Source: Eledone cirrhosa
Taxonomy: Eukaryota
Reading direction: 5' to 3'
DNA: 64,000 bases
NCBI GenBank assembly: GCA_964016885.1
Contig: OZ024755.1
Location: 6,200,001 to 6,264,000, forward strand
The notes beneath the pieces are model-generated. The model was not told the DNA's origin and did not search any database. It saw only the letters and a list, made by a program, of their open reading frames with translations. This document shows positions 3,265 through 53,273 of the stretch, one piece after another. The stretch's first letter is position 1, and the number at the start of each line of letters is the position of its first letter. The position numbers were made by a program, and so were the translations under genes.

Positions 3265-3556
3265 GATAAATAAATTTCTTTATTAGCCACAAGGGCACAA
3301 AAGAAGGGGACAAATACAAATGGGGAGTTTACATACAGGTATATGAAAATAAAACTATTAATACAATAACAAATAACAATTGAAATCCCAAATAGGGAGG
3401 AGGTGTTACACAGGGGTTGTACACACCCCGAAAAAATGTACAACCCTCATCTTCAGGAGCACCAAGAGTGAGTACACCCTTCCTCTATTCCTCTTTTTCC
3501 TCAACCTACAGGCTTATATAGAGAGAAGGCCCAACCACTCGGGCCATCTTTGCCAC
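3265..3556 (-). mobile_element. 3' fragment of the Tx1/L1-clade LINE (last codons plus 3'UTR)
   Basis: Reverse complement aligns by eye to 51953-52240 (GGCCCGAGTG...CTGTAGGTTGAGGAAAA...TTTGTCCCCTTCTTTTGTGCCC.TGTGGCTAATAAAGAAA). Flanked by a 19-bp duplication, 3246-3264 and 3557-3575 (2 mismatches), within a (GATA)n tract. Confidence 0.9.
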
Positions 3557-6261
3557 ATAGATAGATAGTTAAATACGTTTACTCATGTACACACGAACAG
3601 TCGCTCCGACCACAAAATACATAGATAAATGTCAGCCACATATTGGAATTAATTTGTGACAGTTTTTGTCGCCTAGTAATACATTTATATCTAATCATCT
3701 GGGAAATTAAAATAAAATACGAAATACGAAACATATTTTCAGTTAGATTTATCGATTCCCTCTTGTCAGATTCGTGCTGCGTTCGTCGGTAAAGTTTGTT
3801 AATCAAAATGTAAAATAATGTAGTTTAGACAGTTTATTCAGTCGATATACATACAAAATCACGCGAGGGAAATCGTAAATACAGTCACAACACACTAAAA
3901 ACATAAGATCTCTTATACTCACTGAATAAACACAACAGATATATAAAGCAAAGCAACAGCAACATCGATAGCCATTCCTAAATGTTACATTGGTTTATAA
4001 ATAAATAAAATAAATAAATACATAAATAAAATTAAATTAAATTAAAACTTAAACAATCTTTCCAGTGAATCTCATAGAAACAAGACGTTTTACTTTCGTA
4101 TTGATTACATTTTTCCAAAGTTCTGCCTCACTGTAAGTTTCAGATTAAAACTAAACCAAACAAACAAGGCTAAACGACTGGATCACAAAATTAAAATAAG
4201 AATGACACTTTTCTGTCGACTCAACATCCATTTACAGTGGCCAGGAATTCCAATGCAATAAAACACACAACACAACACAAAACACACACACCACACAACA
4301 CACACAACACAAAACACACACAACATAACAACGCACAACGCACATCAAATCTAGAATAAATCGAATTAAATGTCAGAGGTTGGATCGCCATGATTTTAAC
4401 GATGAGTTTTTAAGTTGCTCGATCAAAGAAACAGCCCGTTTATGAAATAAATCTGCAAGTTAGTGTGAATTCTGAAGTCAAGCGTACACTTAATGTGAAA
4501 CCTCAGGGAGATTCAGTTTAATCTAATATGCAGCCAGATGTTCTATTTCCAGAACAACTTCAAGTAAAATGTAATCCATCGGACGGACTTTCAACAGTTT
4601 CCATCTACCAAATATTACTCACACATATCGATGGTCTGTGGGAAAATGCAACCAGTGCAATATCAGGCTAGAAGCCATAAGATTGTGAAGTGAACTTTTT
4701 AAACGTATATACATACTACCGTAGAAACAACTCTTTTAAGGGGACACACACTGTTGGATTAAATCCGAAATTAACTGTTTACGATACGAAATTTTACTTA
4801 ACCACGCCTGTATGTTTATATCTTTATATTAAATATATTAAATATGAGCGAGAATTTTATCATTTCTTCTGAAGTAATAATTGCTGCCGTTTAACGGTGT
4901 CTCAGAAACAAAAATAAGGATTGCCGCTTTTGAATTGTAGAGATGCGAGTGTGAAAAGACATTCGTCCTTTAGTTATTGTGTATGTTTTCAGAACTAAGA
5001 AGCAATACTTATACAAGATGAAAGATATCTTCTTTAAAACAGTAGCTAATAAATAAGTTTGGATATTCACTGAACTTCTTTGATATTCATTGAAAACTAA
5101 CTTAAGTGAAGGATGTTTGTTGGTTAGTTTCTATATATCACACATGGATACATTTGATATTTCTGTTCTTAGAGGGGTACACATTTTGTAATCCATATTA
5201 GCTCACCGATCAATTAATCTATCGATCTGTTTTTTTGTCTTTCACCCATTCATTCAATATTTCATTATTCCATAGCACGAAACATAACATTTTATATCTA
5301 CACAAATCCATAAAACCATTCAATCAAATCACCAGCTAACCAGACGTACGTAACATATGCACCCATACACGGTTATCTCTAGCTCTCTCTCCCTCCATAT
5401 CTTTCCCTCTCTTTCTCTCTCTATACAGAGAGATGAATAGATAGATAACTCTCTCCATCTATCTGTATACACACAAATATATATACATAATTTGTGTGTG
5501 TGTATATATATACAGAAGGAAGGAGAGAATTATCTATCTAGTTATATCTCTGTATATATATCTATCTATCTATATATATATATATATAATATATGCAATT
5601 ATCAGTGTATCTATCGATCTATCGATTTTGTTAAATATATAATATCGTGTGTTTGTCCCTGCGTTTATTATTCTTTTTTTATACACAGCAATACTCTGCA
5701 AGTATATCTCAAAATATAAACTTTATGTCTTTATACATACATATATGGGAGTGAGTGTTTATTTGCGTGTGTGTATGGCTGTTGTATACTGTTGTGTACG
5801 TTTAATAACTGCAATTTTTAAATACACACAAATACAAGAGTAAGATGAGATGTTGAAGTTTTAATATTATTGCTATGGTCCAATAGAGATATATAGAAAT
5901 AAACAATGATATGGTTTCAGATATTTCGCTAAAGCAGATCAATATATTCTTCTTTAGTTCCTTGGTTGATTGGAGCACTGTTATCGATATACGAAATCCA
6001 GATATATTCTCAGTCAGTTTTAATTAACCATCCGCAATGAAGAATATTTTTTAAAGAAAAAAAAACAAAAGAAGCTCTTTTATGAATGACAAAATAATGA
6101 AGAAAGTAAGAAATTCGGGTGGAACGAGAGAGGGAAATCTACCCGCTTGAGTGGATGGCATAACTCAGTTGCATTCCGTGAACAAGATATTGCATTGCAA
6201 CGGAGAACAGTCAGAAATACATGTTACATCAACCATTCCCCCTCATAGGGCAACTTCTTCA

Positions 6262-6563
6262 AGGGTGAAGCAGCTACTTCTCAGAATTGAGAGATCACAG
6301 CTCCGATACTATGGTCATGTGGTTAGAATGTCTCCGTATAGAATCGCTGGATAGATTTTACGGGCAAAACCAACAGGCAGAAAACACGGGGGTAAACTCC
6401 GAGTAAGATGGTTGGATAGCATCCATGAGCTTGGCTGGTCTGGCTTGGGGATTCAGCCGTATTAGTTGGAGACGGTTGCTTCTGACAGGACCCGCTGAAA
6501 GGAGTGTTTGAGGACTGTGGCCCCACGACCTTCTCGGGAATAAGTGGGCAAAGAAGAAGAAAA
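6262..6563 (+). mobile_element. RTE-clade LINE 3' fragment (degenerate ORF C-terminus)
   Basis: Translates as LLLRIERSQLRYYGHVVRM...KPTGRKHGGKLRVRWLDSI...VASDRTR with in-frame stops, the typical RTE C-terminal motifs. Ends in a (GAA)n tail. Confidence 0.85.
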
Positions 6564-48421: not shown

Positions 48422-48651
48422 TGAAGGCGCATGGCTTAGTGGTTAGAGCATTGGGCTTGCAATCGGAAGGCGCATGGCTTAGTGGTTAGAGCATTGGGCT
48501 TGCAATCGAAAGGTTGTGACTTCAATTCTCGGACAGGGTGATGTGTTGTTTCCTTGAGCAAGACACTTTATTTCACGTTGCTCCAGTTTACTCAGCTGTA
48601 GAAATGAAATGATAGGACTGGGGTCGCTATCATTAAATCACTCAAGACACC
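48422..48651 (+). mobile_element. SINE S2 with duplicated 43-bp head
   Basis: GAAGGCGCATGGCTTAGTGGTTAGAGCATTGGGCTTGCAATCG occurs twice in tandem, followed by the B-box and core. Confidence 0.9.
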
Positions 48652-49085
48652 TTCAGATCCTTTTTATATTGGAAATTCTTCTAGTATTTATATTATATTG
48701 GTCAAAACATAATGGAGTTTCATGGCGATAAGAAAGAAAATACCGACTCCACTAGATTTTTAATACTTTATCGAACTTGAAAGGATAAAAGGCGAAGTTG
48801 ACATGGTGGAATTTGACCTCAAACCACAGAGATCTGAAACAAATACCTCAACGCATTCTATCCGATTCTAATTGTCTTGCTCAAGGACATACCAATCAAC
48901 GGCAATCCAACTGGTGACATTACTGTCATCCGCCACACAACCTAACCACTTTGCCATGCAACTTCACAATTCAATTAACTAGGCAGTAATAGAAATATAT
49001 CCAAATCTGGGTTTTGTTGACTGTATTATGTCTAAAGTACATTCAGCACGAAAATAAGATATTAAACTAATTATATCATATCATC

Positions 49086-49210
49086 AATCTATTTATATTA
49101 TAAATAATTTAGATGTTTTCGTAGTAAGTAACGATATCCTAGATATTCTTCCCAATACCATACCATGATCATCACCGACTAGAGTGGCATATATATATAA
49201 TCATACACGT

Positions 49211-49252
<42 letters not shown>

Positions 49253-49334
49253 TCATACACGTACACACACACACATATATATATATATACTCATACACGT
49301 ACACACACATATATATATATATATATATACTCAT

Positions 49335-49365
<31 letters not shown>

Positions 49366-49598
49366 ATCATACACGTACACACACACACACATATATGTCC
49401 GTGTGTGAGCATATATATACAAATATATATGAACACACAACATTATATATATATATATTATATCCATACAGAATAAAAAGGAAGTAAGCTGATCAGGAGA
49501 AGATTCTATATATATATCCTGACCCACCCAAAGTATAATAATATCTGTTTCAACACAGATTTTCAGAAGAAAAATCTTTCGAAACAAATACAAAAACG
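49086..49598 (+). repeat. Left copy of ~513-bp direct duplication flanking the LINE
   Basis: Matches 52243-52757, apparently identical except one TA unit. Confidence 0.95.
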
Positions 49599-52242
49599 TT
49601 GTCAGAAGCAAAATACGTGCTCTGGGAAACGAGGGAGCCAAAGCTGTTAGCTGGGCCCGAGTGACGGAGGCAAAAAGTGGCAACAAGTCCACGATTCGGT
49701 CTTTGAAGGACCAAAACGGACGCGTGATACGTGAGCCGAAGCAGATGTGTGCGGCTTTTCAGCGGCACTTTGCTCGGCTGTTCGGGGGGAGCGGCGCGCC
49801 GGGAGAGGCTATGGATTTCGGTCCATACCTCGACGGCCTACCGCGACTCTCGGACAGCGAGGCGAAGTTCTGCGAAAAGCCGATTTCAGCCACTGAGATA
49901 GGGGACGCGCTGAGCCAATGCGGCAAACGCAAATCTCCAGGTCTCGACGGTCTACCCTACGAATTTTACGTAGCAATGCCGGACTTATTCTCCGGTCTCC
50001 TGGAAGCGGTCTACTGCAACTGGCAACAGAACGGGAGAATTCCCAGTTCTGTAACCGGGGGCGTGGTCACACTAATCAGGAAGGACGAGAATAAGGGGGA
50101 TGACATAGGCAACTTCCGGCCCATAACTCTGCTAAACACAGAGTTACAGATTTTGGCCAAGGTGTTGGCAAAGAGGCTGGCGCTTGTCGTCGAGAACCTG
50201 GTGGGAGAAGCGCAGACATGCGCGATCCCGACCAGGTCCATACACGACAACCTCCACCTCATGCGATACATCATAGAGAGGGTAGGGTGTAAACCCGGCT
50301 TCGGTGGGGCCCTGATCAACTTGGATCAGTCTAAGGCTTTCGATAGGGTTGACCATCGTTACCTGGATGCGGTGCTCGAGGCGGCAGGCTTCGGACCCGT
50401 GTTCAGGGGCTGGATTGCTGCAATGCACAACAGCAACATCTGCTCAAGGGTCAAGGTGAACGGTTACCTCTCGGAGCCGTTCCATATTACGCGATCCATT
50501 CGACAGGGATGCCCTCTCTCCTCCCTTCTGTACGTACTGACTCTCGAGCCACTACTGCGGAAGCTGGAGCTATTGCAGGGCATCCCTCTGGAACCGGGAC
50601 TGCGGAAAGCGGCGTCGGCCTACGCCGACGACGTGACAGTAATGGTGTCGAGCGCCTCGCAAATCGAGGAAGTCGGCACCTTACTAAAGGAATACGAAAG
50701 TCTCACAGGAGCGAAGCTGAACCGGGACAAGTCCATCGGTTTGCAACTCGGATCGTGGAGAGGCAGACCGATGCCTTCCGATGGCGTCGTCGGACGCTGG
50801 ACGGAAGGACCGGTAAAGCTGCTCGGGGTCTGGTTTGGTCCGGACCTCCAGGTGGAGAAGAACTGGAACGAAGTGACGGCCAAGGTGTTTGCACTCACCC
50901 AGAAGTGGGCCGAGTGCAAACTATCCTTGAAAGGTCGAGCGGAGGTGGCGAACACTTTTATAGCGTCCGCCATCTACTACCGCTTGACCGTCGTGCCTTG
51001 TCCAGCCAAAACGCTCGCCAAAATGGAGCGCGCCCTCTTCCGATTCCTTTGGAAGAGGCGGGCTCCTTTGGTAAGAAGATCCATCTGCTGCCAACACCCT
51101 TCTAACGGAGGGCTGGGGATGCCGTGGTTGACGATGCGCAAACACGCGCTCAGGCTGCGGCATCTCTACGTATTCCTCACCGGACAACCGGTGTGGGCCC
51201 CGTTCGTGAGGCGAGCCTTCCCACGACTCGTCTCGCTGACCGAGCTGCAGTCCTGGGTCAAGCAGAGACCGAGGAAAATGGGCGACTGGCACATCGAATG
51301 TGCTCAGGCGCTCACAGCCCTCTGGCAGGTGGACCCGGCGATCAGTGGAGACTCCACTTCGTCATTCTATAGAGGGTTGGTCCGCAGCAAGTGCGACGAC
51401 GCGCTCGGTGAAACTCTAGGCGTGGAGGAAGATGAACTGGCCAGTCTGTTCGGTAGGACCTTCCGCCCGGGACCGATGGACAACTTCCAAAAGTCCCTGG
51501 CCTGGCAGTGCTACCGAGGAGCTCTACCAGTTCGAGACAAGCTCTACAGACATGGGCGCCCGGGCAGGGACCCTGCAAAAAAGATCTGTCCGAGGTGCGT
51601 GCGAGACGAAGAAACCGTCGCGCACGCATTCATACACTGCCCGGGCGTCACTGACCTGTGGGGCTATGTAGAACGACTATTGTCGCGGGTGGGACCAATC
51701 CAGTTGACCACCGAGTCCATTGTCATGATCAAACCGCCACCCTCCTTCAAAAACGAAGGAGAGGCGGTTTTCCTTTGTGTGATAGCTATGGCGAAAGAGG
51801 TTGTATGGTGGACAAGGTTGAAAGGGCTGAGGTCAGACACCTTTCTCTCCGGCCAACAACTGATTCTTTTTTTCAAATACCACTTTGGAAGAAGAATCAG
51901 GATGGAGAGAGAGGTGCTGTACCCCAGCAAGTTTTATGAAAGGTGGGTGAAAGTGGCGAGAATGGCCCGAGTGAATGGGCCTTCTCTCTATATCAGCCTG
52001 TAGGTTGAGGAAAAGGAGGAGGAGAGGAAAGGAGTACAAGCTCTTCGTACTCCTGGAGATGAGGGTTGCACATTTTTTTCGGGGGTCTGTGTTACCCATA
52101 TAAACTGTCTCCCTCTATTGGGGAAAATCGACTAACTTTTAAATTCCATCTGTGATAACATTTTACACGTTTTTATTGTATGTAAACTTCCCCCTTTGTA
52201 TTTGTCCCCTTCTTTTGTGCCCCTGTGGCTAATAAAGAAATA
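49598..52242 (+). mobile_element. 5'-truncated non-LTR retrotransposon, L1/Tx1 clade
   Basis: Abrupt GC-rich block; the frame is open from the 5' junction (VVRSKIRALGNEG...). The 3'UTR has AATAAA at 52231. No endonuclease domain or ORF1 is present. Confidence 0.95.
49661..52003 (+). CDS. Truncated ORF2: reverse transcriptase plus C-terminal CCHC zinc knuckle
   Basis: Motifs KSPGLDGLPYEFY, NFRPITLLN, DQSKAFDRV, IRQGCPLS, YADD, KLLGV, GGLG and CPRC-x8-H-x4-C; no stops over 780 aa. The listed start is not a true initiator. Confidence 0.93.
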   Translation: MTEAKSGNKSTIRSLKDQNGRVIREPKQMCAAFQRHFARLFGGSGAPGEAMDFGPYLDGLPRLSDSEAKFCEKPISATEIGDALSQCGKRKSPGLDGLPYEFYVAMPDLFSGLLEAVYCNWQQNGRIPSSVTGGVVTLIRKDENKGDDIGNFRPITLLNTELQILAKVLAKRLALVVENLVGEAQTCAIPTRSIHDNLHLMRYIIERVGCKPGFGGALINLDQSKAFDRVDHRYLDAVLEAAGFGPVFRGWIAAMHNSNICSRVKVNGYLSEPFHITRSIRQGCPLSSLLYVLTLEPLLRKLELLQGIPLEPGLRKAASAYADDVTVMVSSASQIEEVGTLLKEYESLTGAKLNRDKSIGLQLGSWRGRPMPSDGVVGRWTEGPVKLLGVWFGPDLQVEKNWNEVTAKVFALTQKWAECKLSLKGRAEVANTFIASAIYYRLTVVPCPAKTLAKMERALFRFLWKRRAPLVRRSICCQHPSNGGLGMPWLTMRKHALRLRHLYVFLTGQPVWAPFVRRAFPRLVSLTELQSWVKQRPRKMGDWHIECAQALTALWQVDPAISGDSTSSFYRGLVRSKCDDALGETLGVEEDELASLFGRTFRPGPMDNFQKSLAWQCYRGALPVRDKLYRHGRPGRDPAKKICPRCVRDEETVAHAFIHCPGVTDLWGYVERLLSRVGPIQLTTESIVMIKPPPSFKNEGEAVFLCVIAMAKEVVWWTRLKGLRSDTFLSGQQLILFFKYHFGRRIRMEREVLYPSKFYERWVKVARMARVNGPSLYISL

Positions 52243-52367
52243 AATCTATTTATATTATAAATAATTTAGATGTTTTCGTAGTAAGTAACGATATCCTAGA
52301 TATTCTTCCCAATACCATACCATGATCATCACCGACTAGAGTGGCATATATATATAATCATACACGT

Positions 52368-52411
<44 letters not shown>

Positions 52412-52493
52412 TCATACACGTACACACACACACATATATATATATATACTCATACACGTACACACACATATATATATATATATATATACTCAT

Positions 52494-52524
<31 letters not shown>

Positions 52525-52757
52525 ATCATACACGTACACACACACACACATATATGTCCGTGTGTGAGCATATATATACAAATATATATGAACACACAAC
52601 ATTATATATATATATATTATATCCATACAGAATAAAAAGGAAGTAAGCTGATCAGGAGAAGATTCTATATATATATCCTGACCCACCCAAAGTATAATAA
52701 TATCTGTTTCAACACAGATTTTCAGAAGAAAAATCTTTCGAAACAAATACAAAAACG
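52243..52757 (+). repeat. Right copy of the flanking direct duplication
   Basis: Begins AATCTATTTATATTATAAAT and ends GAAACAAATACAAAAACG, as does the left copy. Confidence 0.95.
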
Positions 52758-53273
52758 AAATTTGTATTATATATATATATATACGCACACATATATGTAT
52801 ATATATTTATACACACACACACATATATCTAACATAAATATACACATTTATGATGCAAAGGCATAAAAAATACGTTATGAAATAAAGTTCGTTCTTCATC
52901 ATATAATTTCCTTTTTCTCATGATTGGGGTGTTTAACAAATTAAGAAGCAAAGAAAACCTATGTTATGAAGAAGTACAAAACACAACCAGAAAGACAAAA
53001 AAAAAAAACAATGATTAATACGTACGAATTATTGACACGACGAAAGAAAATAGAATTAATTAGTTGAATTGTAGATATACACGTCCGGCATTTACTTCTG
53101 TTTACTTTACAGCAATAACATATTTTGAGTTTGGCATCAGCATCTATCGCCCCTCATTTAACTCAATCCGTCTTTCTACTCTTACGACAAGTGTACATGG
53201 CGCCGGTCTATACCTCCTTCCTGTGAGATCTCAACTAGATTAGGAAGCTGTATTTAGTATAAATCTACTTTTA

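What the first reader, a model, noticed from the sequence alone, without database searches (positions are those of the whole stretch)
49086..52757. Young Tx1 LINE flanked by a ~513-bp near-perfect target-site-like duplication
Seen: the duplicated block abuts the 5' truncation point (1-nt G microhomology) and the 3' end of the element exactly. The two copies differ only by one TA unit (513 vs 515 bp). Established: LINE TSDs are normally under ~30 bp. The sibling fragment at 3265 has a 19-bp TSD. Inference: a very distant second-strand nick, or insertion coupled to replication or break repair, duplicated host DNA very recently.
Basis: partly seen in the sequence, partly recalled or inferred. Interest (0 to 1): 0.75.

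Follow-up and report, generated by a model that had tools for sequence, protein, structure and literature searches.

The report
Rare long duplication around young LINE
A very young jumping gene (a LINE) is flanked by two almost identical 513-base copies of the DNA it landed in, about thirty times its family's usual length; this is likely a rare insertion scar of a kind already known from other LINEs.

Summary
Window 49086-49598 and 52243-52757 are identical except for one AT unit. They bracket a 5'-truncated Tx1-like LINE that differs by 1 base in 2,646 from an intact full-length copy. The family targets (TATC)n, and the block starts on a degenerate target in exact register, so the 3' junction is family-normal. 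The 5' junction has 2 nt of microhomology (CG), not 1. Sister copies have short duplications (median 17 nt; 27 resolvable of 135). One more long one, 286 nt, turned up among 169 other copies with a 3' end. So long duplications are real in this family but rare (about 0.6%; 95% interval 0.02-3%). They are known from human L1 in cells, Dualen and R9, and this scan has noted similar cases in other genomes. Best reading: ordinary target-primed insertion whose second end was resolved about 512 bp away. A distal nick and replication-driven copying cannot be told apart here. No read across either LINE junction was seen, so an assembly artefact or recombination between two insertions remains possible (about 15% together). 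The cut falls in the loop of an 8-bp hairpin, a weak one-off lead.

The parts
49086..49598 (+). Duplicated host block, copy 1 (5' side), 513 nt; microsatellite-rich, no sign of coding sequence
   Evidence: Alignment; unique start found only twice in the assembly
49086..49096 (+). Degenerate family target AATCTATTTAT (9 of 11 to TATCTATCTAT); inferred first-strand nick site
   Evidence: Column counts over 100 copies and chance rate 70 of 44,977 non-simple window positions; 7 of 22 other off-target copies start with AATCTAT
49597..49598 (+). 2-nt microhomology CG at the 5' junction, assignable to host or element
   Evidence: 26 of 30 longer copies carry CG just before the truncation point
49597..52242 (+). 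5'-truncated Tx1-like LINE, 2,646 nt of a 5,856-nt element
   Evidence: 1 substitution against full-length copy L127
49599..52003 (+). Open remnant of ORF2 (RT and zf-RVT; the endonuclease domain is lost by truncation)
   Evidence: RVT_1 E 4e-27, zf-RVT E 2.5e-6
52004..52242 (+). 3' UTR ending in the family's terminal AATAAAGAAATA
52243..52757 (+). Duplicated host block, copy 2 (3' side), 515 nt; its longest AT tract (52378-52410) is one unit longer
52746..52768 (+). 8-bp inverted repeat with a 7-nt loop spanning the right end of the block; the junction CG (52756-52757) lies in the loop
   Evidence: Predicted -4.5 kcal/mol as single-stranded DNA; 0.64% of 2,794 non-simple control positions lie in such a loop; absent at L195 and at 15 other TSD ends
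3274..3556 (-). 3' fragment of an older related Tx1 (77% identical) beside an (ATAG)n array; not a close sibling

Best explanation
A young (TATC)n-targeting Tx1-like LINE is flanked by a 513/515-bp duplication of unique host DNA that was likely made during its own insertion, as an unusually long target-site duplication. Shown: the family's target, the register of the 3' junction, the 5' truncation, the 2-nt microhomology, the youth of the copy and the rarity of long duplications among sisters. Inferred: the element's APE endonuclease nicked the bottom strand at the degenerate target at 49086, and reverse transcription ran 2.65 kb. The usual second break 8-25 nt away was not used. The top strand was instead broken about 512 nt downstream, possibly at the small hairpin loop there. 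That end was joined to the cDNA through CG, and fill-in duplicated the block. I give this distal-nick route about 0.45 and replication-driven copying about 0.35 (listed as a rival). The extra AT unit is later slippage or a consensus error.
For: The first 7 nt after the element's 3' end are TATCTAT in 88 of 100 unselected copies. The block starts AATCTATTTAT, 9 of 11 in register (chance 0.16%), and this is the only [TA]ATCTAT in the block. Seven of the 22 other off-target copies also start with AATCTAT; those with a resolvable TSD have 10-25 nt beginning at that motif. The element is 1 base from L127 and carries the L127-type allele at both diagnostic sites, 50046 and 51670. The two blocks have 0 substitutions, which fits the element's age. 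A second case exists: L195 has a 286-nt duplication with 1 mismatch. It starts at the 3' end and stops 10 nt before the 5' junction, and no other fetched locus matches that block above 92%. Known precedent: TSDs over 100 bp in under 10% of HeLa L1 events and up to 5.3 kb in NER-deficient cells (PMC5223499, passages).
Against: No read or contig bridging either LINE junction was seen. Contigs from one sample run unbroken across 49086 at flat depth, and no piece crossing 49598 was among those listed. Contig cleaning could explain this (my own knowledge), but it gives no support. A target-like AATCTTT lies 26 nt upstream of the 5' junction, as a separate insertion would leave; chance is 14%. The empty allele was not seen. 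The hairpin is absent at L195 and was noticed after the fact.
Confidence: 0.82

Rival explanations
1. Same event by a different route (a share of the 0.82, not added to it). There was no distal nick. The host end opposite the reverse-transcribed end was extended about 512 nt by break-induced replication or fork bypass and then joined to the cDNA by microhomology.
For: It predicts the same product. It is proposed for 1-10 kb duplications at L1 insertions (bioRxiv 10.1101/2024.12.14.628481, passages). At L195, 9 of the 10 extra bases at the 5' junction repeat element sequence just inside the junction, which resembles templated end-joining (inference).
Against: That model was framed for 1-10 kb duplications; the two cases here are 0.3-0.5 kb. 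The window's junction has no extra bases and falls in a hairpin loop.
Confidence: 0.35
2. Unequal recombination between two independent insertions on different haplotypes, one at 49086 and one at about 49573-49598. A crossover inside the LINE puts the interval on both sides.
For: AATCTTT, one mismatch from AATCTAT, starts 26 nt before the 5' junction, just beyond the usual TSD range. The family is abundant: 4,582 exact 3' motifs. The model itself is recalled, not read; PMC5488345 on long HERV-K TSDs was seen only as a search listing.
Against: Such a motif occurs in that window by chance at 14% of positions. Two same-strand off-target insertions within 0.5 kb are needed, yet only 23 copies genome-wide have a non-T base after this 3' end variant. 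The blocks show 0 substitutions and 14 of 15 equal microsatellite tracts, which suits one haplotype. The element shows no mosaic: 1 difference from L127.
Confidence: 0.08
3. Assembly artefact: an empty haplotype and an insertion haplotype were merged, so the block was written twice.
For: Not excluded by reads: one search lists no contig across the 5' junction, and the one contig inside the block has depth 12.2 against 10.5 for the flank contig (X16). The 2-nt difference could be allelic.
Against: An insertion allele has one 5' and one 3' junction, and here they are 513 nt apart on the host sequence. The 3' junction has the family's target in register and the 5' junction has microhomology. There is no N in the window. 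L195 shows the same anatomy with extra junction bases. Contig depth near 10 cannot tell 1x from 2x.
Confidence: 0.07
4. A tandem duplication existed first, and the LINE inserted exactly at its junction.
For: Tandem duplications are common near these elements: units of 6.5 kb, 1.24 kb and 0.67 kb.
Against: It needs the duplication breakpoint to coincide with the only target-like site in the block, and the insertion to add no TSD of its own. The blocks are as young as the element.
Confidence: 0.03

Closest known systems
Large TSDs of de novo human L1 insertions (PMC5223499, passages read; it cites Gilbert 2002/2005 and Symer 2002, which I did not read)
   Same: APE-type LINE; duplication of hundreds of bases flanking the insert; minority outcome (under 10% in HeLa); distal second nick proposed.
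   Different: There: cultured human cells and a poly(A)-tailed L1. Here: an endogenous copy in a genome assembly, from a microsatellite-targeting Tx1 family without a poly(A) tail.
L1-associated small tandem duplications explained by break-induced replication (bioRxiv 10.1101/2024.12.14.628481, passages read)
   Same: Tandem duplication with the LINE at the junction, treated as a large TSD.
   Different: 1-10 kb, in cancer genomes and induced clones; here 0.3-0.5 kb.
Dualen-4b_cRei of Chlamydomonas (median 900-bp duplications in more than half of insertions) and rotifer R9 (126 bp), both from PMC9977147 passages
   Same: Long heritable duplications flanking a non-LTR insert in vivo.
   Different: For Dualen-4b they are the usual outcome, possibly from dual APE plus RLE nucleases. 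Here they are rare (1 of 169 sisters), and ORF2 shows only APE, RT and zf-RVT.
Microsatellite-targeting Tx1 families: Kibi (TC)n, Koshi (TTC)n, crocodilian Tx1 on (TTCC)n/(TTTC)n (PMC4494074 and PMC3812793, passages read)
   Same: Two ORFs, APE-RT ORF2 whose best named retrotransposon match is Xenopus Tx1, strict microsatellite target, head-to-tail stacking.
   Different: The target is (TATC)n; the word TATC does not occur in either paper. I built no tree with Kibi or Koshi.

Membership tests
Tx1 group of L1-clade LINEs | ORF2 with APE endonuclease, RT and C-terminal zinc-binding domain | tested here: met
   Full-length copy L116: Exo_endo_phos, RVT_1 and zf-RVT all above cut-off
Tx1 group of L1-clade LINEs | ORF2 closer to Xenopus Tx1 than to human L1 or R2 | tested here: met
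   YTX2_XENLA 308 bits, 30% identity; human L1 ORF2p 179 bits and R2 82 bits or less in a separate phmmer search
Tx1 group of L1-clade LINEs | Placement inside the Tx1 clade on an RT tree with reference families | not tested
   No tree was built; only one named Tx1 reference was fetched
Tx1 group of L1-clade LINEs | Separate ORF1 with a CCHC zinc knuckle | tested here: inconclusive
   A 643-codon frame with a C-x2-C-x4-H-x4-C motif seen by eye; no Pfam hit
Target-specific Tx1 (Kojima's criterion: over 20% of flanks of one type) | Most copies lie in one target sequence | tested here: met
   88 of 100 have TATCTAT after the 3' end; 72 of 100 have a TATC-like 5' flank; criterion from PMC4494074
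Target-site duplication made by target-primed reverse transcription | Duplication begins at the endonuclease target at the element's 3' end and ends at the 5' junction | tested here: met
Target-site duplication made by target-primed reverse transcription | The empty allele carries the block once, and both copies lie on one molecule | tested here: inconclusive
   Short contigs confirm only the join of left flank to block; no long reads or second haplotype were available
Families with programmed long TSDs (Dualen-4b, R9) | Long TSDs in a large share of insertions | tested here: not met
   1 of 169 other copies has over 100 nt; median of 27 resolvable TSDs is 17 nt

The most novel reading that the evidence does not exclude
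Even a strictly sequence-specific Tx1 fixes only its first cut. In roughly 1% of inherited insertions the second end is set hundreds of bases away by host DNA, here by opening of a hairpin loop in the displaced strand. A 4,500-copy microsatellite-targeting family would then have seeded tens of sub-kilobase segmental duplications, a natural set for mapping the unexplained second-strand step.
Probability: 0.15. Interest if true: 0.55.

Novelty: new member of a known kind. Interest (0 to 1): 0.3.

Why it matters
How the second DNA strand is cut during LINE insertion is still open, and TSD length records it. An endogenous 513-bp case, plus a 286-bp sister, suggests that the long duplications seen in cultured cells also occur in an animal genome and in a target-specific Tx1 family, at about 0.6% of copies. 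Such events escape TSD searches capped at 25-30 bp (PMC2912911 and PMC12016303, passages) and could copy exons or regulatory DNA. This one copies microsatellite-rich DNA with no sign of coding. The phenomenon is known, so the gain is one measured rate and two clean examples, not a new mechanism.

Tried and rejected
(1) L128, a 683-nt 99.0% repeat around a young copy: rejected as a TSD. Three other loci match that block at 98.7-98.8%, and the TATC run is missing upstream, so two copies of a second young family explain it. (2) L176 (satellite), L166 and L133 (CA tracts) and the 66 pure-TATC matches: TSD length cannot be resolved. L147's 380-nt repeat lies wholly upstream of the element. The values 33, 45 and 46 among the 27 are probably inflated by TATC runs or adjacent copies; I left them in. 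(3) The idea that off-target landing causes long TSDs: not supported, 0 of 22 other off-target copies. (4) A hairpin at the second end as a rule: absent at L195, L067 and 14 short-TSD ends. (5) Reads: only short contigs held the locus. Three runs of one sample cover 48612-49188, two of them with no differences. The listing was cut and showed no junction-bridging piece, so this is no evidence either way. The 3' junction and right flank remain untested against reads. Small-share runs of other organisms were not used. (6) repeat finder was swamped by microsatellites. (7) Pfam scan of 89 of 144 non-simple reading frames in the window: no hit above cut-off, so no host gene was identified. (8) Searches for a published Tx1 long TSD or a (TATC)n Tx1 listed nothing specific. 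Most subscription journals and Repbase are not searched, and bioRxiv supplements could not be seen.

Full report
Observation. A local alignment gives blocks at 49086-49598 (513 nt) and 52243-52757 (515 nt), with no substitution and one 2-nt gap. Exact extension stops at the element's edges on both sides. The gap is in the longest AT tract, 31 against 33 nt; the other 8 AT and 6 CA tracts are equal. The first 105 nt of the block occur only at these two places in the 3.0-Gb assembly. The window has no N. Chance is excluded.

The element. Between the blocks lies an open frame ending at 52003 with RVT_1 and zf-RVT domains. A 43-nt 3' motif has 4,582 exact matches in the genome. Full-length copies are 5,856 nt with two ORFs. 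ORF2 of copy L116 has APE, RT and zf-RVT domains. Its best named retrotransposon match is Xenopus Tx1 ORF2 (308 bits, 30%), against 179 bits for human L1 ORF2p in a separate search. The nearest named protein is from the octopod Argonauta (63%), so the host is probably an octopus-like cephalopod (inference). The window copy differs from full-length L127 at 1 of 2,646 positions, so it is very young.

The junctions. In the first 100 of the 4,582 listed copies, the element ends in AATAAAGAAA(T/C)A or a close variant, and the next 7 nt are TATCTAT in 88. The 5' flank is TATC-like in 72. The family therefore targets (TATC)n. The window block begins AATCTATTTAT, a 9-of-11 match in register. Only 70 of 44,977 non-simple window positions do as well, and it is the only [TA]ATCTAT in the block. 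Genome-wide, 23 copies have a non-T base after this 3' end variant. Of the 22 others, 7 start with AATCTAT, and those with a resolvable TSD have 10-25 nt starting at that motif. The 3' junction is thus an ordinary product of this family's machinery. At the 5' end, 26 of 30 longer copies read CG before the truncation point, as the host does, so the microhomology is 2 nt and not 1. The fragment at 3274-3556 is only 77% identical and its flanks lie in a microsatellite; a 19-nt TSD cannot be shown.

How unusual within the family. I examined 175 other copies: 100 unselected, 22 off-target, 13 young copies, and 40 of the 100 listed among 315 long copies sharing the window's allele. 169 have a 3' end. 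Among the first 135, 27 gave an exact TSD of 8 nt or more that was not pure TATC: range 8-89, median 17, with 23 of 27 at 25 nt or less. Of the rest, 66 were pure TATC and unresolvable, 2 were shorter, and 40 had no exact match. The 89-nt case, L067, is a compound microsatellite. A long duplication reaching out of the repeat would still be seen, up to about 2 kb in the first set and 3.9 kb in the second; the window copy was recovered as positive control. One further case was found. L195 has a 286-nt duplication with 1 mismatch, starting at the 3' end and stopping 10 nt before the 5' junction, and no other fetched locus matches that block above 92%. That is 1 of 169, 95% interval 0.02-3.3%. L128 looked similar but was rejected, because three other loci match its block almost equally well.

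Mechanism. Shown: target, register, truncation, microhomology, youth and rarity. Inferred from established target-primed reverse transcription: a bottom-strand nick at 49086 primed 2.65 kb of cDNA. The second end formed about 512 nt downstream instead of 8-25 nt, and was joined through CG. Two routes give this product. One is a distal top-strand nick, as proposed for NER-deficient cells (PMC5223499, passages). [quoted passage not shown] I lean slightly to the first. The junction lies in the 7-nt loop of an 8-bp inverted repeat (-4.5 kcal/mol), a setting shared by 0.64% of 2,794 control positions. This was noticed after the fact, and neither L195, L067 nor 14 short-TSD ends show it, so it is only a lead.

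Results against the reading. No read evidence supports the LINE junctions. Short contigs from three runs of one sample run unbroken from 48612 (48600 in one run) to 49188, through the block's left edge. No piece across 49598 was among those listed, and depth inside the block was 12.2 against 10.5 in the one run that gave it. Contig cleaning can drop links from a high-copy repeat (my own knowledge), and depth near 10 is noisy, so this neither supports nor refutes. The 3' junction and right flank are untested against reads. A target-like AATCTTT 26 nt before the 5' junction keeps alive recombination between two independent insertions, though chance gives such a motif at 14% of positions. Against that rival, the element carries the L127-type allele at both diagnostic sites, while 11 of 23 young copies carry the other haplotype, and the blocks show no substitutions.

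Comparison with what is known. L1 TSDs over 100 bp make up under 10% of HeLa events and most events in NER-deficient cells (PMC5223499). Dualen-4b makes duplications of median 900 bp in more than half of its insertions, and R9 makes 126 bp (PMC9977147, passages). A long-TSD class over 20 bp is standard (PMC4245944, passages). Genomic surveys often cap TSDs at 25-30 bp (PMC2912911; PMC12016303; passages). Microsatellite-targeting Tx1 families are known for (TC)n, (TTC)n, (TTCC)n and (TTTC)n (PMC4494074; PMC3812793; passages). Seven literature searches listed no report of a long TSD in a Tx1 family or of a (TATC)n target, but the library lacks most subscription journals. Earlier notes of this scan describe 113-588-bp cases in other genomes and TATC targeting in this genome. 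They are unchecked AI notes; I used them for paper leads only.

Verdict. The structure is real in the assembly and most likely a genuine long target-site duplication (0.82). It is a rare, known outcome of LINE insertion and not a family trait or a new mechanism. Interest 0.3; new member of a known kind.

Noticed in passing
L195:184-469 and 6098-6383 (G000:C1:388372024-388382023): Second long TSD in this family: 286 nt, 1 mismatch, duplicating a TATC run plus part of an older Tx1 copy. There are 10 extra bases at the 5' junction, 9 of which repeat nearby element sequence.
   Followed up: yes
L031-L130 and the family genome-wide: The family (4,582 exact 3' motifs; intact 5.86-kb copies over 99.9% alike) targets (TATC)n and stacks head to tail with itself and with older Tx1 families. 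AATCTAT is a recurrent secondary target.
   Followed up: yes
L067:8002-8090 in element orientation: An exact 89-nt match of a compound TATC/TA microsatellite on both sides of a 380-nt copy; a probable intermediate-length TSD.
   Followed up: partly
G000:C2:38738463-38751432; L156:5491-7993; L157:4197-6160: Tandem duplications of LINE-bearing units (6.5 kb at 99.8%, 1.24 kb at 99.6%, 0.67 kb at 99-100%). At least the 1.24-kb and 0.67-kb units have TATC runs between the LINE pieces; unequal exchange is a possible cause.
   Followed up: partly
L128, L047, L090, L127: A second young Tx1 family, about 83-86% identical to this one, whose copies are about 99% alike, shares the same TATC arrays.
   Followed up: partly
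L039, L042, L053, L071, L077, L089, L106, L114 and others: Many copies have large internal gaps or join directly to the middle of a related Tx1, with no TSD: internal deletions or chimeric insertions.
   Followed up: no
window 49520-49568 and 52679-52727: The right part of the duplicated block holds about 50 nt of a high-copy repeat (summed contig depth above 20,000).
   Followed up: no
window 1-64000: No Pfam hit above cut-off in 89 of 144 non-simple reading frames outside the LINE; the window is microsatellite-rich and no host gene was identified.
   Followed up: partly
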